Assembly: GCA_965203905.1 (NCBI GenBank)
Contig: CBDBDQ010000005.1
Coordinates: 4,384,001-4,448,000 of the forward strand
From: Spirochaetia bacterium
GTDB lineage: Bacteria > Spirochaetota > Spirochaetia > SZUA-6 > Bin103
Reading direction: 5' to 3'
DNA: 64,000 nucleotides
Positions 47,900 to 62,663 of this stretch are shown piece after piece. Within the stretch, counting starts at the first letter, position 1. Every line of letters begins with the position of its first letter. The notes beneath the pieces were generated by a model. That model was not told the origin of the DNA. It ran no database searches and saw only the letters and a program-made list of their open reading frames with translations. A program made the position numbers and the translations under genes.

Positions 47900-48006
47900 G
47901 CGCCCTCCTTCTGCGGCAGCTATGCGGCCGCCGGAATTGTCAGTTACCGGGTCAGAAGCATATCATGACCTCTTCGAGAACCCGGAGTCGGAGGAGGGAA
48001 TAAAGA

Positions 48007-50448
48007 TTGTCGAGCGTGAGGGTTGCCTACAATGAGAAAGAGGCGCCGCTGGAGGTGCTGTTGAGGACGATCGACCGCCCCGGAGACTTCTGTACGCAGG
48101 ATCGGATGCTGGTGCCGATGCCGCGCGTCGAGGTGGAAGGGGCGCGCTCTCTCTCCTTCCCGATCACCGAGGAGCAGGCGCATGCGCTCGTCGCGGTGGC
48201 GGAACCGGCGCCCTATGGCAGGGGCGAACAGACCCTCGTAGACCGTTCCGTGCGCGCCTGCCGGCAGATCGATGCGGCGCGGGTGCGAATTACCGGCAGG
48301 GCGTGGCGCGACACCCTGGCGCAGGTCGTCGCACGGGCCGCAACGGGACTCGGCTGTCCGCCCGAACAGACCTCCGCGTGCCTGTACAAGCTGCTGGTGT
48401 ACGAGAAGGGCGGCTTCTTCGCCCCGCACCGGGATACCGAGAAGGTCGACGGCATGGTTGCTACGCTGGTGCTGTCGCTCCCGGTGGCGGGCGCCGGCGG
48501 GGAGCTGGTCATCCGCCACCGGGAGCATGAAAAGGTCGTCGACCTGCGCACCGACGAAGCCTCTGAACTCGCGTTCGCCGCGTTCTATGCGGACTGCGTG
48601 CACGAAATCCGTCCGGTGACGGACGGCTACCGAATCGTCCTCGTCTATCACTTGGTAGTGCGCGGTGCCGCTGCCGCGGTGCTCAAGGCCGCGCCCTACT
48701 ATCGCTCGCAGGAAGAGCAGATCGCGGCCCGATTCAGAAACTGGGAAGCGACTTCGACGGCGGGTGACAAGTTGGTCTGGCTCCTGGAGCACGAATACAG
48801 CGAGGCGGGTCTGTCGTTCGACGTGCTGAAGAACGCCGACGCGGTGTTGGGCCGGGTCCTCGCGCGGGCGGCGGAGCAGGCGAAACAAGTGCTGTACGCG
48901 GCCATCCTCGGAATCTCCGAGTGGGGGACCCTGCCCGAGTTGGCCGAGTCACTGGACTGGGACGAACCCTCCGACGACTGGGAGTCCATGGAACTGGTCC
49001 ACTCTACCCGATCACTGGTCGGACTGGTTGCACCGGACGGCTCGCGTCCCGACTACGGCGAGCTGCCGCTGTTGCCGGGAGAACTGCTCCCCGCCGGGGC
49101 GCTGGACGGCGTGGCGCCGGATCAGGAGGACACCCGCTTTACGGGCAACGCAGGCGTAGAGATGAGCCGCAGCTATCGTCGCGCGGCGCTGGTGCTGTGG
49201 CCCCGGGAGAGGACCGTGGGGACCCTCGCCCGCGGCGACATCGAAGGTGCCCTGGCGTGGTTCGCGGATGACCTGGCGCGATCGCAACGCGACATCCGGT
49301 CGCAACCGCGCTTGTCCGGTCTCGCCGCTCAGCTTATCGCCGCCTGGCCCGAGCCGGACCCCGCTCGATTCCATAGCCGGCATCGCTCGGATTGGTCACA
49401 GCCGGCCTACGGTGAGGCGCTTCGCCTCCTGCACCGGCTGGGGGACGAGGCCACCATCCGGCGCTTTCTGTGCGAAGTTGCCACGCAACACTATAGCGGG
49501 GCGGAAAACGTCGAGTTGCTGAGGACGGCGACGGAGGTAGCTCCCGCTGTCCTGCACACCTGGCTGCCGCAGTTCACGGCGGCTAATTTCTCGCACGCCC
49601 CGGGGGACGTCCTCGACTTGCTTTGGCGTCTGCACCGGCAGGAAGATTCAGGTCCCGACCTGATCCGGCGCTTGGCGCTGGTCGAGGCGGTGCGAGCGGT
49701 CTGCCTTCTGTTGCCCGTTGTGGTGGAGGGCGCAGCCACCGCGCAGCCGGCCGCGGCCCGCTTCCGGCCGGCACGGCGGTGGAACTCCGGCCGGCCGCTG
49801 ACGGCACGGGCGATCCGCTCTCTGTTCGCACTGATCTGGCACTGCGCGCAGCCGGCGGCGGCCGCGGAAGCTGCCGCGCTCCTGGTGCAGCGTCCGGAAG
49901 CGGCTCCCCCGGATCGGGCCCTGCCGCTGGCACTTGCGGAGCTGGCGAAACTGGATGGCATGGCCGGCGATGCGACCGAGTCTGCCGGGTTCGCGGCGCT
50001 CTGGCGGCACGCGGCGGCTTTTCTGCTGGCGCGCAGCCCGGCGCCCCCCGAGGAGCCGCGCGACTGGGTGATCGAGTCCGTTGTCGGGTGCGACTGCCCG
50101 AACTGCGATCGGCTGCGAGCCTTCTGCGCGGACGCGGTAGCCACGACCTTACGGTTCTCGATGCGTCAGGACATGCGCCTGCACATCGAGTCGGTGATCA
50201 CCTTTGGGCGACTCGACATCGACTGCCGGACCGAGCGCGAAGGCAGATCGGATATCCTGATCTGCACCAAGACGCGCGCCTCCTACGAACGACGATGTGC
50301 GCAGTACGCCCAGGATGTCACGCACATGCGGCTGCTGGTTGCCGCGGCCCCCGGCAGCGGCGCTGCGGTGGCCGACGATCTGGGGCAATTGCACGCGGCG
50401 CTTGCGCGCGCCGGACGAGCGGTCAGCCCTTCAGAGAGCCGATCATGA
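48007..50448 (+). CDS. Large 2OG-Fe(II) oxygenase-domain protein with a C-terminal CxCxxC region
   Basis: YKLLVYEKGGFFAPHRDTEK, HEIRPV, RIVLVY; CDCPNC; GGAGG RBS before TTG. Confidence 0.85.
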   Translation: MSSVRVAYNEKEAPLEVLLRTIDRPGDFCTQDRMLVPMPRVEVEGARSLSFPITEEQAHALVAVAEPAPYGRGEQTLVDRSVRACRQIDAARVRITGRAWRDTLAQVVARAATGLGCPPEQTSACLYKLLVYEKGGFFAPHRDTEKVDGMVATLVLSLPVAGAGGELVIRHREHEKVVDLRTDEASELAFAAFYADCVHEIRPVTDGYRIVLVYHLVVRGAAAAVLKAAPYYRSQEEQIAARFRNWEATSTAGDKLVWLLEHEYSEAGLSFDVLKNADAVLGRVLARAAEQAKQVLYAAILGISEWGTLPELAESLDWDEPSDDWESMELVHSTRSLVGLVAPDGSRPDYGELPLLPGELLPAGALDGVAPDQEDTRFTGNAGVEMSRSYRRAALVLWPRERTVGTLARGDIEGALAWFADDLARSQRDIRSQPRLSGLAAQLIAAWPEPDPARFHSRHRSDWSQPAYGEALRLLHRLGDEATIRRFLCEVATQHYSGAENVELLRTATEVAPAVLHTWLPQFTAANFSHAPGDVLDLLWRLHRQEDSGPDLIRRLALVEAVRAVCLLLPVVVEGAATAQPAAARFRPARRWNSGRPLTARAIRSLFALIWHCAQPAAAAEAAALLVQRPEAAPPDRALPLALAELAKLDGMAGDATESAGFAALWRHAAAFLLARSPAPPEEPRDWVIESVVGCDCPNCDRLRAFCADAVATTLRFSMRQDMRLHIESVITFGRLDIDCRTEREGRSDILICTKTRASYERRCAQYAQDVTHMRLLVAAAPGSGAAVADDLGQLHAALARAGRAVSPSESRS

Positions 50449-51313
50449 TGCCCTGCACGAAGTACTTCTGCAGGAACGGGTACACGATCAGCAGCGGCAG
50501 GCTGGCGACCACGATGCTGCCGTACTTGATCAGCTCGGCGGCATGCTGCCGCTCTTTGAGGTCCGCGATATCGGTCACCGTCTCGGGGTCGTCGAGGATC
50601 AGGATCGAGCGCAGCACGAGCTGCAGCGGATACTTCTGCTGGTCGTCGAGGAAAATCAGCGCGTTGAAGAATTCGTTCCAGTGCCCCACGCCGTAGTAGA
50701 TCGCCAGCACCGCGATTACCGGGCGCGACAGCGGCAGCACGATGCGCACGAAGAACGGGATGTGGTTGCAGCCGTCGATCGCCGCCGCCTCGTACAGCTC
50801 GTCGGCAATGGTGGTCTGGAAGAAGGTGCGGGTGACGATGATGTGCCACACCATGGCCGCACCCATGATCACCATGATCGCCCGCGTGTCGAGCAGCCCG
50901 AGCGATCGCACCAGCAGGTACTTGGGGATGAGGCCGCCCTCGAAGTAGAGGGTGGCGAGCAGGAAGATCATCAGCACGTAGCGGCCCGAGAAGCGCCGCG
51001 ACGACAGCGGGTAGGCGACCGTCACCGTCATCGTGATGTTGAGCAGCGTGCCGAGCACGGCGTAGAAGATGGTGTTGGCGTAGCCGCGCCAGATGCTGGC
51101 CGTGTTGAAGATGCGCTCGTAGCCGGCGAAGGTCAGGCCGCGCGGCCAGAGCCACACGTTGCCGGCGTAGATGGCAGCGGGGTCGGAGACCGATGCGATC
51201 AGCACGAAGTAGAGCGGGTAGGCCACCAGCAACAGGGCCAGCGTCACGCACCCGTTGACGATGGCGAGGTTGATCCGGTCCTCGCGGGATGGCTTCATTG
51301 CGTGCGCCGGCAT
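50423..51313 (-). CDS. Carbohydrate ABC permease
   Basis: AYPLS, GGLIP, ELYEAAAIDG, YPFLQKYFVQG. Confidence 0.93.
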   Translation of the reverse strand: MPAHAMKPSREDRINLAIVNGCVTLALLLVAYPLYFVLIASVSDPAAIYAGNVWLWPRGLTFAGYERIFNTASIWRGYANTIFYAVLGTLLNITMTVTVAYPLSSRRFSGRYVLMIFLLATLYFEGGLIPKYLLVRSLGLLDTRAIMVIMGAAMVWHIIVTRTFFQTTIADELYEAAAIDGCNHIPFFVRIVLPLSRPVIAVLAIYYGVGHWNEFFNALIFLDDQQKYPLQLVLRSILILDDPETVTDIADLKERQHAAELIKYGSIVVASLPLLIVYPFLQKYFVQGIMIGSLKG

Positions 51314-51327
51314 CGCGATTCGCCCCG

Positions 51328-52302
51328 CTACCAGAGGGTGTTCTGCCGCAGCGCCCGCGCAATCTGGTTGACGCTGATCAGCAGGACCATGTTGATGACG
51401 GTGTTGAACAGGTTGATCGCCGTCGAATAGTCGTACTGGGCCTTGATCAGCCCCACCTTGTAGATGTAGGTGGCGATGATCTCGGAGGCCTCGGCGTTGA
51501 GCAGGTTCTGCAGCAGATACGCCTTCTGAAAGCCCACGTTCATGATCTGCCCCAGGCTCAGGATCAGCAGGATCACCGCGGTCGGCATCAGCAGCGGCAG
51601 GTCGATGTGGACGATCTTCTGGCGGATGGTGGCGCCGTCGATGCGGGCCGCCTCGTACAGGGTGGGGTCGATCCCGGCGAGCACCGCCAGGTAGATGATG
51701 GCGCCCCAGCCGGCGTGCTGCCACACGCTCGACAGCACGTAGATGGTCTTGAACCAGCGCGCCTCGGCAAGAAAGTTCACCGGCTCGCCGCCGAGCAGCA
51801 CCAGCAGGTGGTTGACCATGCCGCTGACCGGCGACAGCAGCACGTAGAGCATGCCGGCGAGCACCACGATGGAGATGAAGTGGGGGGCGTACACGGCGGT
51901 CTGCACCACCCGCTTGTACGTGGCGGCGCGCATCTCGTTGAGCATCAGGGCCAGGATGATCGGCACCGGGAAGCCGAGCGCCAGCTCGTACAGGCTGATG
52001 CCGAGGGTGTTGGTGATGACGCGCCAGAACAGGAACGAGTTGAAGAACTTCTTGAAGTGGACCAGGCCGGCCCAGGGGCTGCCGGTGATGCCGAGGGTGG
52101 CGACGAAGTCCTTGAACGCCAACTGCACCCCGTACATGGGCACGTAGTGGAACAGGATGAAGTAGGCGACGGCGGGCGCCGCCAGGATCCAGAGCTGGTG
52201 CTCGCGCCGGAGCGTCTTGACGAGTCGGCCGATGCCGGTGGCCGGCCCGAGGCGGATTTCGCCCGGCGGTGTCGCGCCGGCCTGCCGGGTGGCGCCGCTC
52301 AG
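51328..52302 (-). CDS. Carbohydrate ABC permease, LplB-like (start uncertain, possibly CTG)
   Basis: YVPMYG, SPWAGL, YAPHFIS, LYEAARIDGA. Confidence 0.9.
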   Translation of the reverse strand: MSGATRQAGATPPGEIRLGPATGIGRLVKTLRREHQLWILAAPAVAYFILFHYVPMYGVQLAFKDFVATLGITGSPWAGLVHFKKFFNSFLFWRVITNTLGISLYELALGFPVPIILALMLNEMRAATYKRVVQTAVYAPHFISIVVLAGMLYVLLSPVSGMVNHLLVLLGGEPVNFLAEARWFKTIYVLSSVWQHAGWGAIIYLAVLAGIDPTLYEAARIDGATIRQKIVHIDLPLLMPTAVILLILSLGQIMNVGFQKAYLLQNLLNAEASEIIATYIYKVGLIKAQYDYSTAINLFNTVINMVLLISVNQIARALRQNTLW

Positions 52303-53093
52303 CGGCCCATCCAGCGCAGCTTTCCGGGCTCGAACACGCGCCCCGGCTCGCCGTAGTCGTTGCCGGCCAGGTCCTTGCCGCGCAGCAGGTAGACGGTGTG
52401 CCGGCCGCGCTGCCTGGTGGGGTTGAACTTCACGTCGGTGGTCATGTAGCGCATGGTGTAACCGCAGCGGCGGCGGCGACTGGTGTTGGGGCTGGAGCTG
52501 TGCATCAGCTTGGCGTGATGCACGTGACACTCGCCGGCGCGGATCGCCAGGTCGACCGCCTTGCTTTCGTCGAGCTGGTCGGGGCGGATGCGGGTGCCGA
52601 ACACGTGCTGCGAGTGGTCCACCTCCTCATACTCCGAGAAGCCGTGGTGGTGGGTGCCGGGAATCACCCGCATGCAGCCGTTCTCGGGCAGCGAGTCGTC
52701 GATCGCCAGCCACACCGTGACCACCTTGTGCTCGCTCAGGCTCACGTTCCAGTAGGCGGAGTCCTCGTGCCACGGCACCGCCAGGCCGCGCTGCGGCAGC
52801 TTGCACAGGAAGTGGCTGGCCCACAGTGCGATGTTGGGCCCGATCAGGCGCTCCACGAAGTCGAGCACCTCCTCCGCGGCCAGCCACTCGAACAGCTCGG
52901 GAAAGGCAAAGTGCGGGACGTCCATCCCCTCCGGGCGCGCATCCTCCGGCAACTGCGCCAGCATGCCGTCGAAGAAGCGTTGCAGGCGTCCGAACTTCTC
53001 TGCCGGAAAGAGCTGGTGGTGATAGACCAGGTAGCCCTGCTCGGTGAAGAAACGCAGGTCGGTGTCGGTCAGGTGTACCGGGTGTCGATCCAA
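52299..53093 (-). CDS. PhyH-family Fe(II)/2OG dioxygenase
   Basis: PWHEDSAYW, WLAIDD, ENGCMRVIPGTH, HSSSPN...RRC. Confidence 0.93.
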   Translation of the reverse strand: MDRHPVHLTDTDLRFFTEQGYLVYHHQLFPAEKFGRLQRFFDGMLAQLPEDARPEGMDVPHFAFPELFEWLAAEEVLDFVERLIGPNIALWASHFLCKLPQRGLAVPWHEDSAYWNVSLSEHKVVTVWLAIDDSLPENGCMRVIPGTHHHGFSEYEEVDHSQHVFGTRIRPDQLDESKAVDLAIRAGECHVHHAKLMHSSSPNTSRRRRCGYTMRYMTTDVKFNPTRQRGRHTVYLLRGKDLAGNDYGEPGRVFEPGKLRWMGR

Positions 53094-53151
53094 CTTAGGA
53101 ATGCTCCTTATGTGCTGCTACCACAATTGGTTTCTGAGGTCAACCGGAACC

Positions 53152-53179
53152 GGTACTCGGGGGTACTCGGGGTACTCGG
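53152..53179. repeat. GGTACTCGG x3
   Basis: Copies at 53152, 53162 and 53171, upstream of the PhyH-permease operon and at the island edge. Confidence 0.85.
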
Positions 53180-53720
53180 CGTCGGCGACCTGGCCGTCCG
53201 CCATCCCGGTCGTCTCCGGCTCATCGGAGCCCCTCGCCAGTTTCTCGGTGGCGCTCCACGGCCGTCGAACTCACCTTGAACCTAAGCACAGCCTCCCGTC
53301 CGTAAGCTGTTCTCGGGGGCTTGCTCTGCTACTCGGTTTCGCACCCAGGCGACTCAACAAATACGAGCGAAAAGCTTGTGGAAGAAAGAAAGGCGGGCTA
53401 CAGTGTCCAAACGGAGGGAGGGACACCGCAGACAACGGAGCTACGATGGAGCCGGCCACCTCCACGCCGACTTGAGCGTTGGGGCTCAGAGTGGCGCATC
53501 CAGCAACCAGGGCGGGCGCGCCACAGGCCGTTCGACAGTCGCACAGCGAACAGGGTCGAGGTCGGTCAAGACAACCCCTAATGATTCCCGGCGGCTACTG
53601 TAATCTTCTTCGCATTCATGATCTACTTGCTCTTCATGTGGTACGGCGTAGGTAGAGCTTCCCATGCGTCCCAGGCGATGATTCCTTACCCTCTGATCAC
53701 TTCGTAGGCGGTGAACGAAC

Positions 53721-54845
53721 GTGACCGACCAACGTCGCCTCTCCCAGGTGATAAGAAACCTGATCGCCCGGAAGGGCGAAGGAGTCCATTGGGACTTCAA
53801 GCGCAAGCATCAAGAACTTAGCACGGACTTGGTCCACGATGTACTCTGCCTCGCTAACGCCGAACATGTCGGCCCCCGGTTCCTGATATTTGGTGTCGAC
53901 GACGTTGACTATACGCTCCACGATATTCAAGGAAGCAAAGGGCGCAGGACCCAGGCCGACATCGCCGGCCTATTTCGTGACAATGCCGATAAGTTCTTCC
54001 AGTCGAGGTTCCCGTCGTTTCATCTGCGCGACGTACGGATTGATGGGATACTGGTAGACGTGCTGGTCATCGAGGATGAACCAAAGAAGCCTTACCACTT
54101 GATTGCAAACATCGAAAAGGTCCGGGCCCATCACGTTTACACGCGCGTATGCGATACTAACACGCCGGTCAACAGGTCCGCCCAGCCGCATGAGGTCGAA
54201 CGGATGTGGCGCGAGCGGTTCGGGCTCGATGTACCCGCACTCGAGAGAGCCAGACGGTGTCTTGAGGAGTCGGCCGCGTGGACCATACAGGAGGAGAACG
54301 GCTTCGTCTGTTGCCACCATGACGTGTTGCCTGAATTCACGCTAAGGGCGGCGAGTGCGGAGTTCCCATTAGACAGCAGTCAGGAGTGGACGCGTGGTGA
54401 GATCGCGACTGACGCCAACCATGCCAATTGGTACGAACTACGCTGTCATCAGACGGTGTTGCGTCGCATCCATTATGTGAGTTTCGACAAGCGCAAGAAG
54501 AACATTGTGGCCCCCGATTGGGAGCCGATTGGCAAAGGACGGTTCTACTTCTACAGGGCGGGCAGCGTCGAGCACGCAGTCCAGCAGTTCTGGACCGAGC
54601 GCTACGGACGGGATGACTCCGTGGGGCTACAGATTCGAGGAGACAGCGAATCCGCACGCGAGGCAAGACTGAGGTGGCGTCGCGGCCTTAGCATTCCCGT
54701 TGTCGAGTCCTGGGAGCTGGACGGATTCCTGGTCGGTCGAAGATGGCAGTCAACCCGCGGCCCCGACCCATCCACTGATCCGAACGAACAGTACGAGCTA
54801 TTCCTGCGCAATCTTCTCGATTTTGACGACTGTCGGCACGCTTAA
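53721..54845 (+). CDS. Schlafen/AlbA_2-domain protein with unknown C-terminal domain
   Basis: EGVHWDFKR, DVLCLANA, LIFGVDD, KPY, VYTRVCDTN. Confidence 0.8.
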   Translation: MTDQRRLSQVIRNLIARKGEGVHWDFKRKHQELSTDLVHDVLCLANAEHVGPRFLIFGVDDVDYTLHDIQGSKGRRTQADIAGLFRDNADKFFQSRFPSFHLRDVRIDGILVDVLVIEDEPKKPYHLIANIEKVRAHHVYTRVCDTNTPVNRSAQPHEVERMWRERFGLDVPALERARRCLEESAAWTIQEENGFVCCHHDVLPEFTLRAASAEFPLDSSQEWTRGEIATDANHANWYELRCHQTVLRRIHYVSFDKRKKNIVAPDWEPIGKGRFYFYRAGSVEHAVQQFWTERYGRDDSVGLQIRGDSESAREARLRWRRGLSIPVVESWELDGFLVGRRWQSTRGPDPSTDPNEQYELFLRNLLDFDDCRHA

Positions 54846-54857
54846 GAGGACTGACTT

Positions 54858-55487
54858 ATGCGGTCGGACAGAGATGCCGCGTGGATCGAGATGGCGGGAA
54901 TCGCCCGCCCGGATGGCGCACTAAGCGACGGGAAATGGGCTACGCTGAGGTACCGAGTCGACGTAGCGAGAGCGCGGCTCGCGTCCGCCGAAATGCGCCC
55001 TAACAGGAGCATGTGCCGTCTTCTCCTAGTGGGTGAAGACCACAGGATCGCTCTACATCCTGGTGTGGACCCACTTGCGCTTTGCCGGGCGTTGTGGCGG
55101 ACTTATGGGCGCGGGCGCCGCGAAGGCGGGTCCACGGTGGCTATGCAGCTAGTACGAGTGCTTACGGATCGCTTCGAGAGGAGTTGGCGGAGGAAGGCTA
55201 ACGAGATGTTCCTCGCGATACACTTGGCGCGCCATGTGCCAATCGACGAGTTGCCGGCGCTCTATCTTTCTGTAGGCTACTACGGGTGGCGTATGAATGG
55301 CTTTGTCCAAGCATGCCGCCGATTGGGTGTCGACCCGGAGATTTGTTCGCTTCAGGAGTCGGCGTCGGTGGTTGCGCGTCTCAAGTATCCGGAACCAAAA
55401 AGCTGTACGGCGTCGAGACGACTCCAGATAGCTCGAAGGTCCGAGTACCTCATGGCACGGTTGGAGCACTATGGCCGAAGGTACTAA
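54858..55487 (+). CDS. Stand-alone GT51 transglycosylase-like domain without membrane anchor
   Basis: EDHRIALHPGVD, GGSTVAMQLVR, RKANE, LYLSVGYYG; GAGGA RBS. Confidence 0.8.
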   Translation: MRSDRDAAWIEMAGIARPDGALSDGKWATLRYRVDVARARLASAEMRPNRSMCRLLLVGEDHRIALHPGVDPLALCRALWRTYGRGRREGGSTVAMQLVRVLTDRFERSWRRKANEMFLAIHLARHVPIDELPALYLSVGYYGWRMNGFVQACRRLGVDPEICSLQESASVVARLKYPEPKSCTASRRLQIARRSEYLMARLEHYGRRY

Positions 55488-56166
55488 AGCATTCGTTATC
55501 GATCCGCAGTTGGCCAAGCTAATGGGGGCGTATCCTTGCCCGCAGGACCTGCTTTCGGCCGCCGCGGCTGGGCCGCGTGAGAGGGCGATCCTCGCTCGGC
55601 TGTGGATTTCCGAAGGGATTCCGTTTGCGTTCAGTAGATGCCCGGGTGTCTATGAGGAAGTGCGCGATTCACTCGCCAAGAGACTGAGACTGGACGCGAA
55701 GCAAATCAGCATGGTCGGTAGCGGTCGGATCGGGTACTCCTTGGCACCCAAGAAGTGGGGTGAAGAGTACCGGGCAGAGTCGTCCGACCTAGATCTGTTT
55801 GCCGTGTCCGAACGGTTGTTCGAGAGATTGCGGGAGGACTTCGAACGCTGGCGCGACGACTATGCTCGTGGCGACATACAACCTAGTACGGGACAGGAAA
55901 GATTCTACTGGAACGCGAACCGAAGGGAGACGCCAATCTCCATTCAAAGAGGTTTTATCGATTCGATCCGCGTGCCGAATCGACAGCGTTACGCGGTCTT
56001 CTTGGCAATGAACAGCTGCCTCGCAGACGTCCGGCTCAAACTACTCGAGGCGGGCGAAGGTCCGAAGCCACGAAGCAGGTTGACGCTCAGGTGCTACAGG
56101 CACTGGGACTCGTGCGAACTCCAGATGACCATCAGCTTGAAAGCGGTCGTGGATTATCTGACCTAA
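55471..56166 (+). CDS. Pol-beta-superfamily nucleotidyltransferase-like protein
   Basis: MVGSGRIGYSL...SDLDL (GS plus DxD signature); overlaps the upstream gene by 17 bp. Confidence 0.75.
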   Translation: MAEGTKAFVIDPQLAKLMGAYPCPQDLLSAAAAGPRERAILARLWISEGIPFAFSRCPGVYEEVRDSLAKRLRLDAKQISMVGSGRIGYSLAPKKWGEEYRAESSDLDLFAVSERLFERLREDFERWRDDYARGDIQPSTGQERFYWNANRRETPISIQRGFIDSIRVPNRQRYAVFLAMNSCLADVRLKLLEAGEGPKPRSRLTLRCYRHWDSCELQMTISLKAVVDYLT

Positions 56167-56493
56167 TCAGTTGGTTGGCATCGAGATCCTCGTGATGACC
56201 TGAAGGCGGCGGATAACAATGATGATATGATAATGAGAAGGAAGAGCCACTGGAAGCGATCCAGAATCGGCCAGGCCCTCACTGTCGCTTTGGAAGCGGC
56301 GCTGGAGGCCGGCTCGGTTCTCGCGCCGGTAGCCGGCGGTTGACGGCTTGGGCGACGGTCGGAGTGGGTCATCGCGCCGTTTGCTGGAACGGATCCGGCG
56401 CTCCCCAGATTCGATCACCTCGCTCGCGGACAGCCACTCGAACACATGCTTCTGAATAAATGGAGTCATCGCCTTGCTACGCGTTCTACGGGG

Positions 56494-57345
56494 TCATCCT
56501 GAGCAATTCCGCAGTCTCTTCAGGAGGGCTTGATAGCGATTCGCTGTTCCTGAACTCACAACCGACTCGGCCAACATCATTTCGTGTTCTTCAGATTTGT
56601 ACCGTACGTCGTAATACCCACTCAAACTGGTCCGATAAACCTCCAGATCCCCCGCTGGAGCGATCTCAGTAGCGTCTACGTATAAAATGTACTTGTACTC
56701 TCCACTCGAAAAATAGAATCCATGATTTCCTATTGTACCCTCCATGTTGTAGGTGCCATTGTCGATCACTATATCCGGCTCGCTGTCGTGTAATCTGTGA
56801 ACTTTCCATGAGGCGTAACGGTATCCGTGGTCAACACGGTCTACTCTGATACGATAGGTGCAGGTCTCCCATTCTAGAACGGGAGAGCGGTAGTCTCTTA
56901 GACTCTCGTGCAACTCACGTCTTTCCAGATCGATCAACCGATACCTCTCGCGCTCTTCGAGTTCTGACTCATAGTTTATATTGCGTATTCGACCATCACT
57001 ATCGAACCATACAAGTCCACCGTGCAGTTGAAGCCCGCGCCATCCGATCCGGCCGCATTTGTCGTTGTCTGACGAGACGATGAGCCTCACAAACTCGTCG
57101 TCAAATATCTCTCCATAGCGCTCCATAAACTCGTCACGAGAAATACTTGGAAGCGGATGCCTCCTTCGTAGCGGGAATCTAATTGCTTCCGCTAATCGAT
57201 TCTTGTCTCCATCGCGCACTAACGCAATGAATCGATTGACTATCGATACGTCATCTTCTTCTTGATCCACACAAGAATCTACTTGCGCGGGCACCATCAC
57301 CGTGCCGAGCAAGAGGAGTGGACCGATGAGCACTACGATTCTCAA
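56494..57345 (-). CDS. Secreted hypothetical protein, AT-rich (foreign-looking)
   Basis: Signal-like N-terminus; FPLRR, IGWRGLQL, YRIRVD, YRYASW; start uncertain. Confidence 0.7.
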   Translation of the reverse strand: MRIVVLIGPLLLLGTVMVPAQVDSCVDQEEDDVSIVNRFIALVRDGDKNRLAEAIRFPLRRRHPLPSISRDEFMERYGEIFDDEFVRLIVSSDNDKCGRIGWRGLQLHGGLVWFDSDGRIRNINYESELEERERYRLIDLERRELHESLRDYRSPVLEWETCTYRIRVDRVDHGYRYASWKVHRLHDSEPDIVIDNGTYNMEGTIGNHGFYFSSGEYKYILYVDATEIAPAGDLEVYRTSLSGYYDVRYKSEEHEMMLAESVVSSGTANRYQALLKRLRNCSG

Positions 57346-57377
57346 CGGTCCGCCGAGCGTCCCACTTTGGTTCGCCT

Positions 57378-58994
57378 TTAATCGCTCAGGTGGCGGTCGT
57401 AGACCTTCTGGTAAATCTCCAGCAACCGCGGCAGGCCCATGCTGTCGAGCCGCTGCAGGTAGCCCTCCCAGTCCTCCTCGATGCCGCCGTCGACGATCCA
57501 CCTGGCGCCCATCTCCTGGGTGAACTGGTTGATCTCCGGCGCCAGGTCGGCGATCTCGTCGTTCTCCTCCTCCAGCATGTAGACCAGCGGGAAACGCACG
57601 TAGCTGGCGATGTAGGGCGCGTACTGCTCGTTGCCGGCGAACTTGTCGAGCTGGTCGGCGGTGGGCTCCATCAGGCGCATCACCTCGACCGGCAACGCAT
57701 AGATGCCCATGCCGCGCGGCACCGACTGGTTCTTCCAGCTGATGCGGCTCTCGAACCCGTCGGGGATCTCGGCGTGCACGTAGGTGCCGTCGCCCTTCTC
57801 GAGGATCTGCTTGCCGATGATCCCGAACCACGACTGCAGCGCCCAGGTCGGGTCGTACTGCAGGTCGGCCCAGCGCACCGCCGCCTGCGGGTACTCGGAG
57901 GCGCTGGTGACCGTGAACGCGTTGAGGAAGTAGCTCGGCGGATCGCCCGGCCAGCGCCGGCCCGCGGGCCCCTCCAGCGGATCCATGGTGACGTAGCCGC
58001 TGTCCACCCCCTCGCCGAACAGGTAGGCCGCGCTCCACGCCGTGAACGAGCCCAGGATCGGCGGGTCGAGCTGGCGCTGCTTGGCGGTCAGCTCGGCGTA
58101 GGAGTGGGAGAACGCCTCGATGTCGATCAGCCCCTCGGAATAGAGGCCGTGGAAGTACTCGATGCCGTCCCGGTAGGCGTCGGTGGCGGCCACGTAGATC
58201 ACCCGCGTCGGGTCGTCGCGGTCGATCGAGATGCCCATCTCCTCGCCGAGGTGGTGCTGGCGGTCGACCCCGAAGCTGCTGAACAGCGGGTACACGCCCA
58301 GCCAGCCGAAGGTACGGAAGGAGAGCGGGATCTCGTCCGCCTCGCCGTTGCCGTTGGGGTCGCCGTGCTTGAAGGCGCGCAGCACCTCGCGGTATTCGTC
58401 GTAGTTCTGCGGCATGTCGAGGCCCAGCTTGTCGAGCCAGTTCTTGTTGATGAAGAAGTGGAGCTGCGGCTCGGCGCCCGACTCCCAGATGCCGGGCATG
58501 GAGTAGATGTGGCCGTCCGGAGCCTGCATCGCAAGCCGCACCTCGGGCCGGTCTTGCAGGATGCGGTTCAGGTTCGGCGCCCACTGTGCGAGGTCGTCCT
58601 CGATCGCCCGGAACACGCCCTGCGGCGCGTGCGTGAGGATGTCCGCCGGGTCCAGCGTCTTGTGCATGAAGAACGCGTCCGGGTAGTCGCCCGAGGCGAA
58701 CAGCAGGTTCTTCTTCTCCTGGTACGCCTCCTCCTGGATCTGGCGCCACTCGACGTGGATGTTGGTCTTCTCCTCCACCATGTCGAAGAACTCCAGTCCC
58801 TCGTGCGGATAGGTCTTGTGGCCGATCACCCCCACCATCTCCAGGGTGATCTTCTCGGTAGTCACCGGGTAGCCGGAGTCGGTGTAGATGTCGGCAGCCG
58901 CCGTCCCCGTCTCCTCGGTGGCGGCGGCGAACGCGCCGCCCGCTCCCAGCGCGAGCAGGACTGCGGTACTCAGCAGCGTGCGAACCTGTTTCAT
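57378..58994 (-). CDS. Carbohydrate ABC substrate-binding protein, family 1
   Basis: AAGGAGG RBS; signal peptide; ASGDYPD, INKNWLDKLGL, DPNGNGEADEIP. Confidence 0.92.
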   Translation of the reverse strand: MKQVRTLLSTAVLLALGAGGAFAAATEETGTAAADIYTDSGYPVTTEKITLEMVGVIGHKTYPHEGLEFFDMVEEKTNIHVEWRQIQEEAYQEKKNLLFASGDYPDAFFMHKTLDPADILTHAPQGVFRAIEDDLAQWAPNLNRILQDRPEVRLAMQAPDGHIYSMPGIWESGAEPQLHFFINKNWLDKLGLDMPQNYDEYREVLRAFKHGDPNGNGEADEIPLSFRTFGWLGVYPLFSSFGVDRQHHLGEEMGISIDRDDPTRVIYVAATDAYRDGIEYFHGLYSEGLIDIEAFSHSYAELTAKQRQLDPPILGSFTAWSAAYLFGEGVDSGYVTMDPLEGPAGRRWPGDPPSYFLNAFTVTSASEYPQAAVRWADLQYDPTWALQSWFGIIGKQILEKGDGTYVHAEIPDGFESRISWKNQSVPRGMGIYALPVEVMRLMEPTADQLDKFAGNEQYAPYIASYVRFPLVYMLEEENDEIADLAPEINQFTQEMGARWIVDGGIEEDWEGYLQRLDSMGLPRLLEIYQKVYDRHLSD

Positions 58995-59005
58995 GGCTTC
59001 TCCTC

Positions 59006-59035
59006 CTTGATCGGACTTGATCGGACTTGATCGGA
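59006..59035. repeat. Perfect tandem repeat (CTTGATCGGA) x3 overlapping the RBS edge
   Basis: Directly read. Confidence 0.92.
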
Positions 59036-59258
59036 GCCTGTCGGGTACACCAAACCACGGGCACACCACGCCGTCAAGGACGTGCAGTCGGCGTGGTCGG
59101 CGTCAGGACATCCCCCGGATTACGCGGAAACCCGGCGACTCCCCGCGAGCGGTCGAACTGGTAGGTGCGCTCGCCACGCCACTGCCACTTGCGGAACGGC
59201 AGCACCTTGAAGCCGCCGCCGGCCAGCGCTGGCGATGCTCCCGGCCGGCGGCAGGCGG

Positions 59259-59710
59259 CTAGCGCCTCGGCGCGGAGCGCGGCAGCCGTTTCGCGTTGCC
59301 CGGCGGCGAGGTTGCGCACAGCAGCTCGCGGCCGCCGTTGGCGAAGAACAGGTACTTCCAGCGCGGGTCGCGGACCATCACCTTGAAGGCGTCGGTGCCG
59401 GGCAGCCCGTAGTAGCCAACGAGGACCTCGCGCGGCGCGGCCGCTCCCGCCACCATGCCCAGCACGTCGCGGCCTTCCCGGACTTCCGGGTGCCCGGCGG
59501 CGGTGGTGGCGATGCCGAACAGGTCGGTGAGGCACACCAGCTCGGTACGGCGCCGGTCGCGGGGCAGCCGCGCCGGCCAACTGACCAGGAACGGGATGCG
59601 GGCGCTGGCGTCGAAGAAGCTCTCCTTCTGCCAGGCGTGGTGGTCTCCGAGGTGATCGCCATCGTCGGAGAAGAAGCAAATCAGGGTGTCGTCCGCGTCC
59701 GGTCGCGCCT
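59259..59710 (-). pseudogene. Internal/C-terminal sulfatase fragment
   Basis: DTLICFFSDDGDHLGDH...KESFF...RIPFLV...WKY; the N-terminal CxPxR half is absent. Confidence 0.7.
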
Positions 59711-59853
59711 TATGCCGAATGACGACGATCACTGGTCGACGATACAATCCGTTGGCAACGTCAGAGCCCTCGGCGCATCGGACGCGAGTAGTAGCTGTCG
59801 GCTCAAAACCTGGTGGGAGCCGGTCAGCCGTTGGCATTGGAGGAGATACTTGA

Positions 59854-60441
59854 ATGCAAGAGATCGGGTTTCGCCGAATTGTTGAATCTGGAGTCTTCGT
59901 ATGGCCATGGAAGGAGCCGCAGGGTCTGCTGGTTATGAGCGGGGCAGCAGGTGGTGGTGGTGGCGGTGGCGGAGCATTCTGTCTCGAAGGCCTGAATCTT
60001 TATGGTGCAGGCGGCGGCGGCGGCGGCGGCGGCGGCGAGGAAACCCGCGTGATACACGGGAATGCGCACTATAAGGCGGCGGGTGGGGATGGCGGAGTCG
60101 GTGGTGACGGCGGCGGTCTTCACGAGGGCAAGCCTGTCGAAGGCCAGCATGGAAGAGGGTGCCACTACGGCGATGGCGGCCATGGCGGCTACGGGGCAGT
60201 CGTACCTCCGGTCGACGGCCGCCTTGCGTCAAACGGCGGCAATGGCGGGAAGGGCTTTCCGGGAGAGACTCGGATAGTTGAACTTGCCGATCTGACTTCC
60301 GGTGATCGTTTCGAGATCAAAATCGGTAGAGGTGGCAGTGGCGGTGGTGGCGGCCAGGGGTTCGCGGCAGGCGCTGGCGGTGCCACAGGAGCCGATGGAT
60401 TCGTACTGTTTGTTCCCGTACTTTCAGAAAAGGGGAAATAG
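59854..60441 (+). CDS. Glycine-rich-domain protein (phage tail-fibre-like)
   Basis: GGAGGAG RBS; FVWP...GAAGGGGGGG...IKIGRGG...DGFV architecture. Confidence 0.65.
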   Translation: MQEIGFRRIVESGVFVWPWKEPQGLLVMSGAAGGGGGGGGAFCLEGLNLYGAGGGGGGGGGEETRVIHGNAHYKAAGGDGGVGGDGGGLHEGKPVEGQHGRGCHYGDGGHGGYGAVVPPVDGRLASNGGNGGKGFPGETRIVELADLTSGDRFEIKIGRGGSGGGGGQGFAAGAGGATGADGFVLFVPVLSEKGK

Positions 60442-61094
60442 TGCTGCCTAGACGGGCCGCCGCCGGACATGCGAGCAGGCTAGACAGTCTGCCGATGGCA
60501 ATGGACTTGAAAGGATTTCGTGTTCAGGGAAACGGATGCCTACGCATCACCGAAGACCGTCACCCTCCAAGAATGACATGGAGTTCCAGTCGGCATGTCG
60601 ACAAAGTCGAAGAGACACTCCAAGCCTTGGTTGCGATGGGTGGAGCACGCAATCTCGGCGATATGCTGAATGTTGATCCTAATGAAGAAGCACACCCTGA
60701 GCGCGCCTACATGTCGCGCCTGAAGTTCCTGCAGGACGAGGCGGCACATGACGGGTACGTACTGAATCCTACTTCCGAAGTCGATTTCTGGCAGTTTGTT
60801 CGGTCCGCGCCCGACATTCGGAAAGGCAACCTGGTATTGATGGACAACGGTAACCTTAGAGCGATTTGGAAGGATGAACAGGGAACGCGCCTAGGCTTGC
60901 AGTTCCTTGGTGAAGGAATGGTGCAGTTCGTGATCTTCAAGCAGCGCAAGCAGGGACAACCGATTTCGAGGGTCAGTGGACGCGATTCTTTGGACGGACT
61001 AAAATGGATGATTGTCACCTATGAGCTCCATTCGTTGCTTTACCCAGGAAGCGCGACAGTGTACCGACAGGAGGCCACATCGTTCGTTACGTAA
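60441..61094 (+). CDS. Hypothetical protein; start uncertain, probable original stop at 61047-61049
   Basis: Protein-like core (LVLMDNGNLRAIWKD, LGLQFLG, ISRVSGRD). Confidence 0.7.
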   Translation: MLPRRAAAGHASRLDSLPMAMDLKGFRVQGNGCLRITEDRHPPRMTWSSSRHVDKVEETLQALVAMGGARNLGDMLNVDPNEEAHPERAYMSRLKFLQDEAAHDGYVLNPTSEVDFWQFVRSAPDIRKGNLVLMDNGNLRAIWKDEQGTRLGLQFLGEGMVQFVIFKQRKQGQPISRVSGRDSLDGLKWMIVTYELHSLLYPGSATVYRQEATSFVT

Positions 61095-61504
61095 AGCCGA
61101 GCATGATCCAAGAAGATGGGGCTGCGGATGGTTCAGACTTTCGTGTGCGCTCCACACGACCAGAAGAAGCAGGATTGTCCGTAAATTGGCTCGAGGTATT
61201 TGGACCGGACAAGGTCCATCAGCTGGACGAAGTGCGCCGTTTGTGCCGTCTACACTTGAGGCCAAACGGACGTTTTGCAGAAATAAATGTTGGCACGGTC
61301 ATACACCACGTAGCCACAGAGTTGGACTCGCTGCGCATCATCCATGATCCACTTGAAGCAACGGATCGTTTCGATGCCGACCCATCGCACGCGGAGATTA
61401 CCGGTCTGCCTCCGGGCGATTCGGATCAGGCTGTTTTGGTCGGCGATCTAATCGCAGAGTGCGTCATCGCGATGCACCCGGCCGGCGTCGGGGATGACGG
61501 CTGA
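61046..61504 (+). CDS. Putative ART-fold (R-S-H) protein; start appears mutated (AGG); first ATG at 61103
   Basis: HIVRYVKPS lies upstream of the first ATG; GLSVNWL; DPSHAEITG. Confidence 0.55.
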   Translation, partial: RKRDSVPTGGHIVRYVKPSMIQEDGAADGSDFRVRSTRPEEAGLSVNWLEVFGPDKVHQLDEVRRLCRLHLRPNGRFAEINVGTVIHHVATELDSLRIIHDPLEATDRFDADPSHAEITGLPPGDSDQAVLVGDLIAECVIAMHPAGVGDDG

Positions 61505-61791
61505 GACCAAGTTCGCATGATGCGAGCATGACGGGCCGCCGTTCAGTCTCGGTACCCCGGAGAGGCTCGACTCGTTCACGGCCCACAAGGCGACGGGCAT
61601 AAACCAGACAGGCGAGAAAGTCCTCGCGTATCCAGCCACGGGTAACCCTGGAGCAGGGTATCATGATCATCGCCAGCCGCCAGCATACCCAAGATATGTT
61701 CCTCCGCAAGGCGGCGACCTCGAATGATCGGCTTGCCCCCATAGATCCGTGGATCGACGGAGACTCTCTCCAACAGATCGGTTTCGTTCAC
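61464..61791 (-). pseudogene. DUF433 antitoxin, frameshifted at about 61630
   Basis: DPRIYGGKPIIRGRR...GYPWL continues in another frame as REDFLACLVYA. Confidence 0.8.
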
Positions 61792-62158
61792 GGCAGCCTC
61801 GGTCAGCGATTCTACTGGCGAAGCACGCTTGTCAATGTCGACTCACGAGGCCACCTGCCATGAGCGTGGCACGACCCGATAAAGGCTATGTCCCGCTGCG
61901 CAGACCTGGAGTCGGGCGGACGTGATCCGCGGCGGTCCGTTCGCCACGGTGGCCATCATCGGTGGTCGCGGTCGCGTCGGGCGGAAAGCCGGCGGCCAGT
62001 CGGAGCCAGCGCGTCGCTTCGTCCAGCACTTCCCGCGGGCATCGTGATGACCACCGCAAAGCGCCTCAAGCGTCAGCACGCAGCGATCCGACCAGGGCCG
62101 CGGCCTGCGGGAACGCGCGACAGATGCTCGGCAGCGTGCTATGTTACGCGCTTGCCGC

Positions 62159-62622: not shown

Positions 62623-62663
62623 GCGGGGCAGGACTGGCAAGGCTCGAGGGACGGAGCTGAGCG

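What the first reader, a model, noticed from the sequence alone, without database searches (positions are those of the whole stretch)
53721..56166. Candidate undescribed defence operon: Schlafen/AlbA_2 + anchor-less GT51 transglycosylase + nucleotidyltransferase
Seen: three intact co-oriented genes in an AT-richer island, with a 12-bp gap containing an RBS and then a 17-bp overlap. Gene 1 has a Schlafen/AlbA_2 N-domain, gene 2 has GT51 motifs, and gene 3 has the GS...DxD Pol-beta signature. Known: Schlafen domains are RNases used as anti-phage effectors, and Pol-beta NTases are signal makers or toxins in CBASS, AbiE and Hailong. Inference: the NTase makes or attaches a nucleotide signal, and the GT51-like protein and/or Schlafen acts as effector. 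I know of no described system that pairs a peptidoglycan transglycosylase fold with an NTase.
Basis: partly seen in the sequence, partly recalled or inferred. Interest (0 to 1): 0.82.

Follow-up and report, generated by a model that had tools for sequence, protein, structure and literature searches.

The report
Anchorless cell-wall polymerase paired with nucleotidyltransferase
A peptidoglycan-polymerase-type enzyme that lacks its membrane anchor is almost always encoded just ahead of, and sometimes fused to, a small nucleotidyltransferase-like protein; this mobile, undescribed gene pair is probably a toxin-antitoxin or anti-phage module, and the Schlafen-like gene beside it is a separate neighbour.

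Summary
Three intact co-oriented genes lie at 53721-56166, with a 12-nt gap and a 17-nt overlap. They sit in a 4.3-kb lower-GC insertion that three same-genus genomes lack.

- **Gene 2** is a true GT51 domain (Pfam Transgly, 8.8e-26). Both presumed catalytic Glu are invariant and it has no membrane anchor.
- **Genes 2 and 3 form the conserved unit.** GT51 lies directly upstream of a gene-3 homologue in 38 of 40 genome loci. A gene-3 homologue lies directly downstream of GT51 in 74 of 80 loci. Five fused forms exist.
- **Gene 1** is Schlafen/AlbA_2-like and already matches the PADLOC single-gene candidate PDC-S50 (2.4e-66). It is absent from all those loci and co-occurs only in about six close relatives.

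The pair was not found in 60 of 60 relatives searched, spans many phyla, and often lies beside restriction, TIR, transposase or integrase genes.

My best reading (confidence about 0.4) is a two-gene toxin-antitoxin or abortive-infection module. A cytoplasm-facing GT51 would attack the lipid II pool and the nucleotidyltransferase would gate it. Function is untested. I found no published description.

The parts
53110..57381 (.). Lower-GC insertion of about 4.27 kb, holding four genes, between the PhyH-like dioxygenase gene and the ABC solute-binding-protein gene
   Evidence: blastn against three same-genus genomes (G007, G009, G010): similarity stops near window 53109 and resumes near 57382. In those genomes the two flanking genes are adjacent. 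GC profile.
53721..54845 (+). Gene 1: Schlafen/AlbA_2-like protein, equal to PADLOC candidate PDC-S50. Probably an independent single-gene neighbour that is co-transcribed here.
   Evidence: PADLOC PDC-S50 at 2.4e-66. 111 of 120 listed homologues carry PF04326. AF2 pLDDT 82. Foldseek top hit is the SLFN13 N-domain, E 3.7e-4, prob 1.00. phrog_29016 at 4.5e-43. Absent beside the pair in other genomes.
54846..54850 (+). GAGGA ribosome-binding site for gene 2, directly after the gene 1 stop codon
   Evidence: Read from the sequence
54858..55487 (+). Gene 2: anchorless GT51 (peptidoglycan glycosyltransferase fold) with all canonical motifs
   Evidence: Pfam Transgly at 8.8e-26, 90.8 bits against a cut-off of 27. 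Best NCBIfam hit is PBP_1c, far below its cut-off. E60, D61 and E116 are invariant in 42 sequences. Highest 19-residue Kyte-Doolittle hydropathy is 0.92, so no TM segment.
55463..55487 (+). Coupling junction: GGAG, gene 3 ATG at 55471, gene 2 stop at 55485-55487 (17-nt overlap)
   Evidence: In 27 intact pairs the overlap is 14 nt in 12, 17 nt in 3, other overlaps in 8, and a gap of 5-22 nt in 4.
55471..56166 (+). Gene 3: unnamed family with a G-S...S-D-x-D motif, probably a minimal (MNT-like) nucleotidyltransferase core with helical insertions
56494..57345 (-). Fourth gene of the insertion: 283-aa protein with a hydrophobic, signal-peptide-like N-terminus and no family
   Evidence: Start candidates. 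No Pfam, PADLOC or PHROGs hit. Not found among the conserved neighbours of the pair.

Best explanation
The functional unit is genes 2 and 3, not all three genes. It is a mobile two-gene cassette, occasionally a single fused gene. Gene 2 is a catalytically intact GT51 glycosyltransferase with no membrane anchor, so it works on the cytoplasmic side. Gene 3 is a small MNT-like nucleotidyltransferase. I read the cassette as a toxin-antitoxin or abortive-infection conflict module. In this reading (inferred), GT51 is the effector: from inside the cell it acts on lipid II or another undecaprenyl-PP-linked precursor, polymerising it on the wrong face of the membrane. That would trap the lipid carrier and stop wall synthesis. 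The nucleotidyltransferase, made by translational coupling in fixed proportion, would hold GT51 in check by nucleotidylylating it, as MntA does to HepT in type VII toxin-antitoxin systems, until infection or loss of the cassette releases it. Gene 1 is a separate Schlafen-like single-gene defence candidate (PDC-S50) that travelled in the same small island and is probably co-transcribed here. Shown: pairing, fusion, coupling, motif conservation, lack of an anchor, horizontal acquisition. Inferred: cytoplasmic topology, substrate, direction of control, defence role.
For: Pairing: GT51 lies directly upstream on the same strand in 38 of 40 distinct genome loci found through gene 3. The two misses are a contig end (L037) and a degraded copy (L003). 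A gene 3 homologue lies directly downstream in 74 of the best 80 loci found through GT51, out of 138 relatives. Fusion: 4 of 4 long representatives tested (P0271, P0352, P0355, P0300) have Transgly at the N-terminus and a gene-3-like C-terminus. One isolate genome (L118, Vibrio mytili) has a single 404-aa ORF holding both domains. Coupling: 23 of 27 intact pairs overlap. Co-inheritance: Mantel r 0.66, with 0 of 2000 permutations as high. No third conserved neighbour: no other cluster occurs in more than 3 of 40 loci. Enzyme intact: E60, D61, G90, S92, T93, Q97, R112, K113 and E116 are invariant. Cytoplasmic side: 115 of 120 homologues have no hydrophobic segment. The 5 that do have net charge 0 or -1 before the helix and +1 to +4 after it. 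In the fused forms no predicted TM segment lies between the GT51 domain and an NTP-using domain. NTase: invariant G-S...D-x-D, and the top three structural rows are MNTs. Mobility and conflict context: the pair lies in a 4.27-kb insertion absent from 3 syntenic same-genus genomes. Gene 3 was found in 0 of 60 relatives and is single-copy in this genome. About 8 of 40 loci have clear defence neighbours within two genes (type I, II and IIG R-M, Dsr1, PRTase-CE, PDC-S69, S45, S05, S02 and S31, PD-DExK with CARF), and about 6 more are ambiguous. Transposase, integrase or IS genes adjoin in L039, L041, L042 and L046. On plasmid pM830MA the pair sits among bSEFIR/TIR, PDC-S21, a PtuA-like ATPase with HNH, Hp1-3, PLD and DUF4365 genes.
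Confidence: 0.4

Rival explanations
1. Same two-gene conflict module, but with the roles reversed. The nucleotidyltransferase is the toxin or effector (as AbiEii and MenT nucleotidylylate tRNA). The cytoplasmic GT51 is the antitoxin or sensor, reading the state of the lipid II pool or a phage lysis protein that blocks it.
For: The gene order (NTase second) matches antitoxin-then-toxin operons (recalled knowledge of AbiE and MenAT). GT51 is the constant partner, while in 2 of 80 loci the NTase is replaced by a membrane protein that could be an alternative effector. All pairing, fusion and island evidence applies equally.
Against: An antitoxin or sensor would not obviously need every catalytic GT51 motif invariant. 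Gene 3 hits no AbiEii or other PADLOC NTase model at E<=0.1, and its nearest structures are MNT antitoxins, not DUF1814-type toxins (weak).
Confidence: 0.2
2. Not a conflict system. The pair is an accessory envelope or glycan pathway. The soluble GT51 would build or trim a lipid-linked glycan on the cytoplasmic face and the NTase would decorate or activate a substrate. A further variant is a resistance pair against GT51-targeting phosphoglycolipid antibiotics, with a decoy plus a modifying NTase, as KNTase and Lnu modify antibiotics.
For: Both proteins look like working enzymes. Many neighbours are ordinary metabolic or envelope genes, including a PBP transpeptidase gene in L007 and an SLT gene call in L030. 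RefSeq names the gene 2 homologue 'biosynthetic peptidoglycan transglycosylase'.
Against: No biosynthetic partner genes (flippase, sugar-nucleotide enzymes, polyprenyl transferases) are conserved beside it: no cluster occurs in more than 3 of 40 loci. The distribution is rare and patchy (0 of 60 relatives). The pair lies in a small foreign insertion, among R-M, TIR and IS genes on a plasmid, and copies often decay. All this fits selfish or defence cassettes better. A cytoplasmic decoy could not meet an antibiotic that acts in the periplasm (inference).
Confidence: 0.2
3. One reading: a three-gene system in which the Schlafen-like gene 1 acts together with GT51 and the NTase, for example as the RNase effector.
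For: There is a 12-nt gap with the RBS abutting the gene 1 stop, so co-transcription is likely. All three arrived in one insertion. Six close relatives seem to keep all three on one contig: matching longest-contig lengths 31167, 38967, 281500, 16758, 6821 and 2966 appear. In other loci a variable, co-oriented, sometimes nuclease-like gene sits just upstream: HNH-like in L015, PDC-S69 in L010, PD-DExK in L042, DUF4062 in L034.
Against: A gene 1 homologue is beside the pair in 0 of 40 and 0 of 80 loci. 114 of the 120 listed gene 1 homologues share no contig length with the pair. Gene 1 is already modelled as a stand-alone candidate, PDC-S50. Many loci have a housekeeping or divergent gene upstream, so the pair does not need a third partner.
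Confidence: 0.07

Closest known systems
Type VII toxin-antitoxin HepT/MntA (HEPN toxin plus minimal nucleotidyltransferase antitoxin)
   Same: Two small adjacent genes. One partner has the G-S...D-x-D minimal NTase signature, and MNT structures (1no5, 8xeh, 1wot) are the top three structural rows for gene 3. The control logic I propose, enzyme-on-enzyme nucleotidylylation, is borrowed from this system (recalled knowledge).
   Different: The partner is a GT51 glycosyltransferase, not a HEPN RNase. Gene 3 is 231 aa with an extra conserved N-terminal motif (LW-x-SEGIP-x-AF) and long helical insertions. It fails the Pfam NTP_transf_2 threshold. The gene order is reversed (NTase second). No modification has been shown.
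Class A PBPs and monofunctional transglycosylases (GT51: PBP1a, PBP1b, PBP1c, MtgA)
   Same: Gene 2 matches Pfam Transgly over profile positions 25-176 of 178, and all motif residues are invariant. The best NCBIfam hit is PBP_1c.
   Different: It has no N-terminal membrane anchor and no transpeptidase domain, and is only 209 aa. It scores far below every NCBIfam equivalog cut-off (for example 93.9 bits against 494). Its predicted location is cytoplasmic. It is accessory, rare and horizontally mobile rather than core.
PADLOC candidate PDC-S50 (single-gene phage defence candidate; Schlafen/AlbA_2-like)
   Same: Gene 1 matches its model at 2.4e-66 over residues 6-296. It has the AlbA_2/Schlafen N-domain fold.
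   Different: This concerns gene 1 only. The two papers that mention PDC-S50 (search listing only, not read) are genome surveys, so I know of no mechanism. The model covers 299 of 387 profile positions, so the C-terminus differs.
Zeta/PezT toxins (toxin-antitoxin toxins that poison peptidoglycan precursor synthesis from the cytoplasm)
   Same: They are a precedent (recalled, not tested here) for a toxin-antitoxin toxin that kills by acting on cell-wall precursors inside the cell.
   Different: Zeta toxins are kinases acting on UDP-GlcNAc and are neutralised by a binding antitoxin. There is no sequence or fold relation to GT51 or to gene 3.
   Same: They are Pol-beta-superfamily NTases used in bacterial conflict systems.

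Membership tests
GT51 peptidoglycan glycosyltransferase (Pfam PF00912 Transgly): gene 2 | Score above Pfam's gathering threshold over most of the domain | tested here: met
   90.8 bits against a cut-off of 27, E 8.8e-26, profile positions 25-176 of 178
GT51 peptidoglycan glycosyltransferase (Pfam PF00912 Transgly): gene 2 | Two catalytic glutamates and the conserved motifs (E-D...H-x-G; G-G-S-T; R-K-x-x-E). The motif definitions are recalled, not from a call. | tested here: met
   E60, D61, H67, G69, G90, S92, T93, Q97, R112, K113 and E116 are invariant in 42 family members
GT51 peptidoglycan glycosyltransferase (Pfam PF00912 Transgly): gene 2 | N-terminal membrane anchor placing the domain outside the cytoplasmic membrane (canonical architecture, recalled) | tested here: not met
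   No hydrophobic segment in gene 2 (maximum Kyte-Doolittle 19-residue value 0.92) or in 115 of 120 homologues. The 5 with a helix have the positive charge after it. Fusions to an NTP-using domain exist.
GT51 peptidoglycan glycosyltransferase (Pfam PF00912 Transgly): gene 2 | Polymerises lipid II | not testable with these tools
   Needs an enzyme assay
Named aPBP/MtgA equivalogs (NCBIfam) | Score above the equivalog cut-off | tested here: not met
   Best hit PBP_1c at 93.9 bits against 494.2. mono_pep_trsgly at 31.2 bits against 182.65.
Pol-beta-type / minimal nucleotidyltransferase (Pfam PF01909 NTP_transf_2): gene 3 | Score above the Pfam threshold | tested here: not met
   No hit for the window protein at E<=1. 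5 of 42 members hit below threshold (best E 0.031). The related MdcG family hits in 3 of 42.
Pol-beta-type / minimal nucleotidyltransferase (Pfam PF01909 NTP_transf_2): gene 3 | G-S ... D-x-D signature on strand-turn-strand (definition recalled) | tested here: met
   G83, R86, G88, S90, D106 and D108 are invariant, and S84 and S105 are in at least 90% of sequences. They lie on and between strands 79-82 and 108-112 of the model.
Pol-beta-type / minimal nucleotidyltransferase (Pfam PF01909 NTP_transf_2): gene 3 | Fold similarity to solved NTases | tested here: inconclusive
Type VII toxin-antitoxin HepT/MntA | HEPN (Rx4-6H) toxin partner | tested here: not met
   The partner is GT51 in 38 of 40 and 74 of 80 loci. 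No HEPN family hit.
Type VII toxin-antitoxin HepT/MntA | The antitoxin nucleotidylylates the toxin | not testable with these tools
   Needs mass spectrometry of co-expressed proteins
Schlafen / AlbA_2 (PF04326): gene 1 | AlbA_2 domain by profile | tested here: inconclusive
   The window protein has no Pfam hit at E<=0.1, but 111 of 120 listed homologues (55-89% identical) carry a precomputed PF04326 hit
Schlafen / AlbA_2 (PF04326): gene 1 | Schlafen N-domain fold | tested here: met
   Foldseek: SLFN13 N-domain at E 3.7e-4, prob 1.00, 115 columns. SLFN14, 5, 11 and 12, RecG-related AlbA_2 (2kyy) and the SAMD9 tRNase follow. Only the N-terminal third aligns.
Schlafen / AlbA_2 (PF04326): gene 1 | RNase active-site acidic residues | not tested
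   No residue-level superposition is available from the tools
PADLOC PDC-S50: gene 1 | Match to the PADLOC model | tested here: met
   PDLC05032 at 2.4e-66, 222 bits, residues 6-296 on profile positions 4-302 of 387
Any named system in PADLOC-DB v2.0.0: genes 2 and 3 | Match to any of 5027 models | tested here: not met
   No family for gene 2 or gene 3 at E<=0.1. None for the fused L118 protein at 1e-5. DefenseFinder could not be run.

The most novel reading that the evidence does not exclude
The pair is a new kind of abortive-infection or toxin-antitoxin module whose killing enzyme is a peptidoglycan polymerase turned to face the cytoplasm. When the coupled nucleotidyltransferase stops masking it, GT51 polymerises lipid II on the inner leaflet. 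That strands the undecaprenyl carrier and collapses wall synthesis. It would be the first immune or addiction effector that works by misplacing an essential biosynthetic reaction rather than by degrading something.
Probability: 0.25. Interest if true: 0.85.

Novelty: new variant of a known kind. Interest (0 to 1): 0.66.

Why it matters
GT51 enzymes are known only as anchored, outward-facing cell-wall synthases and as antibiotic targets. Here a family of them has lost the anchor and kept every catalytic motif. It is locked by gene overlap or fusion to an NTP-using enzyme and hops between phyla in small islands. If it is a toxin or defence effector, the lipid II cycle joins the list of targets of bacterial suicide systems, and a natural 'inside-out' transglycosylase becomes available for studying lipid II supply. 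If it is biosynthetic, it points to an unknown cytoplasmic glycan reaction. Either way, the pairing makes a clear, cheap experiment possible. The finding also corrects annotation: RefSeq calls the gene 'biosynthetic peptidoglycan transglycosylase'.

Tried and rejected
- **Complex prediction of gene 2 with gene 3** (alignments A2 and A1). The verdict was 'no answer', score 0.00 in two runs, with no controls folded. This says nothing either way about binding.
- **Foldseek of the gene 3 model against the PDB.** Nothing at E<=1e-3.
- **Profile search of gene 3 against PDB sequences.** Best E was 1.2, with unrelated proteins.
- **hhalign of the gene 3 family against 12 MNT-type proteins of this genome.** Only the S-D-x-D strand aligned.
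- **ESM Atlas.** All near clusters were 'hypothetical protein'. One of 30 had NTP_transf_2 on 11% of its members.
- **Terminal repeats or att sites at the island ends.** None convincing. No tRNA gene in 45000-64000. Promoter and terminator scans were at chance level.
- **Phage records.** No gene 3 homologue in 50,697 records. PHROGs gave only weak hits to families of unknown function for genes 2 and 3.
- **Same site in G001 and G004.** Synteny differs there and there is no island, so it is uninformative.
- **Earlier notes of this scan.** Nothing for this genome region or sequence. The 8 of 13 'transglycosylase nucleotidyltransferase' notes that were shown all concern TGT/DpdA base-exchange enzymes of phages, which are unrelated.
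- **Literature.** Six searches and passages of one preprint gave no description of a GT51-NTase pair. Subscription journals and bioRxiv supplements were not searchable, so lists of candidate systems there may still hold it.
- **PADLOC hits rejected after a Pfam check**: mad3 in L027 is the chromosomal SMC, mad2 in L024 is a TRAM-tRNA methyltransferase, and the L022 hit is UvrB.
- **A required third gene.** I considered and rejected this: no neighbour cluster spans more than 3 of 40 loci.
Full report

Yes. One search lists three co-oriented ORFs at 53721-54845 (374 aa), 54858-55487 (209 aa) and 55471-56166 (231 aa).

- Gene 1 stops at 54843-54845.
- GAGGA follows at 54846-54850, and the gene 2 ATG is at 54858, giving a 12-nt gap.
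- GGAG lies at 55463-55466, and the gene 3 ATG is at 55471.
- Gene 2 stops at 55485-55487, giving a 17-nt overlap.

GC content falls to 0.56-0.62 (0.48-0.55 at 56500-57500) against 0.63-0.76 around it. Each gene has many homologues: 403, 429 and 127 clusters at E<=1e-3. These are genes, not chance ORFs.

**2. The island**

The flanking genes are a PhyH-type dioxygenase (52299-53093, minus strand; Pfam 4e-28) and what I read as an ABC solute-binding protein (57378-59069, minus strand).

In three same-genus genomes (G007, G009, G010) the orthologues of these two genes are directly adjacent. Nucleotide similarity to the window stops near 53109 and resumes near 57382. So about 4.27 kb was inserted.

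The insertion carries genes 1-3 and one minus-strand gene (56494-57345, 283 aa). That gene has a hydrophobic N-terminus and matches no family. I found no terminal repeats, tRNA or integrase at the ends.

The gene 3 family is single-copy in this genome. It was not found in any of 60 relatives searched: 10 in the same genus, 13 in the same family and 37 in the same order.

**3. What the three proteins are**

*Gene 2* is a true GT51 domain.
- It matches Pfam Transgly at 8.8e-26, covering profile positions 25-176 of 178.
- The nearest NCBIfam model is PBP_1c, far below its cut-off.
- In 42 family members E60, D61, H67, G69, G90, S92, T93, Q97, R112, K113 and E116 are invariant. From recalled knowledge of GT51 motifs, these include both catalytic glutamates.
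- It has no hydrophobic segment: the best 19-residue Kyte-Doolittle value is 0.92.

*Gene 3* matches nothing in Pfam, NCBIfam or PADLOC.
- Its family has invariant G83, R86, G88, S90, D106 and D108, nearly invariant S84 and S105, and a very conserved N-terminal block around W45-Y61.
- The AlphaFold model is confident (pLDDT 93.3).
- Foldseek finds nothing.
- Sub-threshold NTP_transf_2 hits occur in 5 of 42 members, and MdcG hits in 3 of 42.
- hhalign against twelve MNT-type proteins of this genome aligns only the S-D-x-D strand.

I take the NTase core as probable, at roughly three in four. It is not proven.

*Gene 1* matches PADLOC's single-gene candidate PDC-S50 at 2.4e-66.
- 111 of its 120 listed homologues carry PF04326 AlbA_2.
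- The best structural matches of its model (pLDDT 82) are Schlafen N-domains: SLFN13 at E 3.7e-4, then SLFN14, 5, 11 and 12, a RecG-related AlbA_2 domain and the SAMD9 tRNase.

**4. Which genes belong together**

Searching the genome collection with gene 3 gave 40 distinct loci.
- A GT51 gene lies directly upstream on the same strand in 38 of them.
- The two misses are a contig end (L037) and a copy broken into three pieces (L003).

Searching with the GT51 family found 138 relatives, and the best 80 were kept.
- 74 have a gene 3 homologue directly downstream.
- 2 end at the contig edge.
- 1 is cut by an IS21 element (L046).
- 1 stands alone (L110).
- 2 (L061, L121) carry a TM-anchored GT51 next to a different partner. 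That partner is a membrane protein with a shared C-terminal domain.

Fusions exist.
- All four long representatives tested have Transgly first and the gene-3-like domain second.
- One isolate genome (L118) encodes both in a single 404-aa ORF.

In 27 intact pairs:
- 23 overlap, by 14 nt in 12 of them and 17 nt in 3.
- The pairwise identities of the two genes are correlated: Mantel r 0.66, with 0 of 2000 permutations as high. Shared host ancestry contributes to this figure.

No other neighbour is conserved: no cluster spans more than 3 of 40 loci.

Gene 1 homologues are in none of these loci. The only sign of a recurring trio is indirect. Six close relatives of gene 1 (73-89% identity) have the same 'longest contig' length as listed gene 2 or gene 3 homologues. 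I could not fetch those contigs.

The unit is therefore the gene 2-gene 3 pair. Gene 1 is a neighbour that moved with it in one sub-lineage and is probably co-transcribed here.

**5. Where the pair lives**

By record titles, the pair occurs in Acidobacteriota, Alpha-, Beta- and Gammaproteobacteria, Desulfobacterota, Campylobacterota, Chlorobiota, Nitrospirota, Bacteroidota, Ignavibacteria, Gemmatimonadota, Latescibacterota, Poribacteria, Verrucomicrobiota and one Bacillota MAG. It is rare: 138 hits in about 185,600 species genomes by a pattern-limited scan.

I scanned up to two genes of at least 120 aa on each side of the pair in the 40 loci, 137 proteins in all.
- About 8 loci have clear defence genes:
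  - L010: PDC-S69
  - L016: type IIG R-M
  - L017: PRTase-CE
  - L020: type II R-M and Dsr1
  - L023: PDC-S45, PDC-S05/RhuM and type I R-M
  - L026: Mrr-like PDC-S02
  - L032: PDC-S31
  - L042: PD-DExK and CARF
- About 6 more are ambiguous: L005, L024, L033, L034, L038 and L040.
- Three strong PADLOC hits turned out on a Pfam check to be SMC, a tRNA methyltransferase and UvrB.
- Many neighbours are plain housekeeping genes.
- Transposase, integrase or IS genes adjoin in L039, L041, L042 and L046.

The one plasmid hit (pM830MA of Aliarcobacter cryaerophilus) places the pair inside a dense defence island. Its neighbours are a PtuA-like ATPase with HNH, Hp1-3, IS21, DUF4365, a PLD-like gene, bSEFIR/TIR (1.4e-83) and PDC-S21 (4.9e-118). 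No phage record holds gene 3.

I ran no matched control for the background rate. The defence association is suggestive, not established.

**6. How it most likely works**

Two facts point to the cytoplasmic side.
- The fused proteins join GT51 to an NTP-dependent domain with no predicted TM segment between them.
- In the 5 of 120 homologues that have an N-terminal helix, the positive charges follow the helix. By the positive-inside rule, that puts the GT51 domain inside the cell, the opposite of canonical PBPs.

Lipid II is completed on the inner leaflet (established knowledge). A cytoplasm-facing, catalytically intact GT51 could therefore consume it there. The product could not be exported and the undecaprenyl carrier would be trapped, which should be strongly toxic.

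A coupled or fused MNT-like enzyme is then best read as the brake, by analogy with MntA nucleotidylylating HepT. This gives a toxin-antitoxin or abortive-infection module with a new kind of toxin. My confidence is about 0.4 for this whole reading, and about 0.25 for the specific inner-leaflet polymerisation mechanism.

The main rival keeps the module but swaps the roles, with the NTase as toxin and GT51 as sensor or antitoxin (0.2). It is favoured by gene order and by GT51 being the constant partner. A non-conflict enzymatic pathway is at 0.2.

**7. Comparison with known systems, and novelty**

- **Gene 2** is a member of GT51 by profile and motifs, but it fails the canonical architecture: no anchor, not outward-facing, no transpeptidase domain.
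- **Gene 3** works like, and may be, a minimal NTase. It fails the family's profile threshold and has the wrong partner for HepT/MntA.
- **Neither gene** matches any of PADLOC's 5027 models.
- **Literature:** six full-text searches and passages of one preprint gave no description of the pair. I could not run DefenseFinder or see subscription journals and preprint supplements.

I rate it a new variant of a known kind: a two-enzyme toxin-antitoxin or defence cassette with an unprecedented component. It would move towards 'categorically new' if the inside-out polymerase mechanism holds.

**8. Verdict**

- Interest is 0.66. The comparative evidence for the pair is strong and the architecture is surprising for cell-wall biology, but function rests on inference.

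Noticed in passing
L061:2815-4818 and L121:2336-3495: In two genomes a GT51 of this clade has an N-terminal TM helix. It is paired not with the NTase but with a membrane protein (356 aa downstream in L061, 170 aa upstream in L121). The C-terminal domains of the two membrane proteins are visibly alike and match no Pfam or PADLOC family. This looks like a second partner type for the same GT51 clade.
   Followed up: partly
window 59854-61791: A second lower-GC patch (0.53-0.55 at 60500-61500). It holds three co-oriented ORFs with no Pfam, NCBIfam or PADLOC hit: a Gly-rich 195 aa (59854-60441), 217 aa (60441-61094) and 133 aa (61103-61504). A 71-aa DUF433 gene lies on the minus strand (61576-61791; Pfam 1.4e-13). 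It may be another small accessory island.
   Followed up: partly
window 48007-50448: An 813-aa protein with a 2OG-Fe(II) oxygenase domain near residues 128-213 (Pfam 7.3e-8; PADLOC '2OG' CRISPR-associated model 1.6e-9). The rest is unassigned.
   Followed up: no
window 56494-57345 (minus strand): The fourth gene of the insertion encodes 283 aa with a signal-peptide-like N-terminus, has the lowest GC of the region (0.48), and matches no family in Pfam, PADLOC or PHROGs. It is not conserved beside the pair elsewhere.
   Followed up: partly
L027:7937-11620, L024:4390-5670, L022:7656-9749: Strong-looking PADLOC hits (mad3 at 7.5e-68, mad2 at 3.4e-18, and mREase_IV/PbeA) fall on the chromosomal SMC, a TRAM-tRNA methyltransferase and UvrB according to Pfam. 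This is a caution for neighbourhood scoring with PADLOC models alone.
   Followed up: yes
L004:6246-7699 (same place as L115): In a Bryobacterales MAG both genes of the pair are each split into two adjacent same-frame pieces (GT51 6246-6797 and 6801-6998; gene 3 homologue 6992-7201 and 7205-7699). That means single in-frame stops in both genes, from decay, assembly error or read-through.
   Followed up: no
own genome (loci L133-L147): The genome holds 15 matches to PF01909 at E<=1e-5, most of them 104-126-aa MNT-type proteins. It is therefore rich in HEPN/MNT-like modules apart from gene 3.
   Followed up: partly
genomes G001, G004, G007, G009, G010: Each same-genus genome has 40-67 matches to the PhyH-type dioxygenase that flanks the island. 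This family is unusually expanded in the genus.
   Followed up: no
L132 (plasmid NZ_MK715471.1, 121703-140356): The plasmid has a dense defence island around the pair: a PtuA-like ATPase with HNH, PADLOC Hp1-Hp2-Hp3, IS21, a DUF4365 protein, a PLD-like gene, bSEFIR/TIR, and DUF4917 (PDC-S21).
   Followed up: partly
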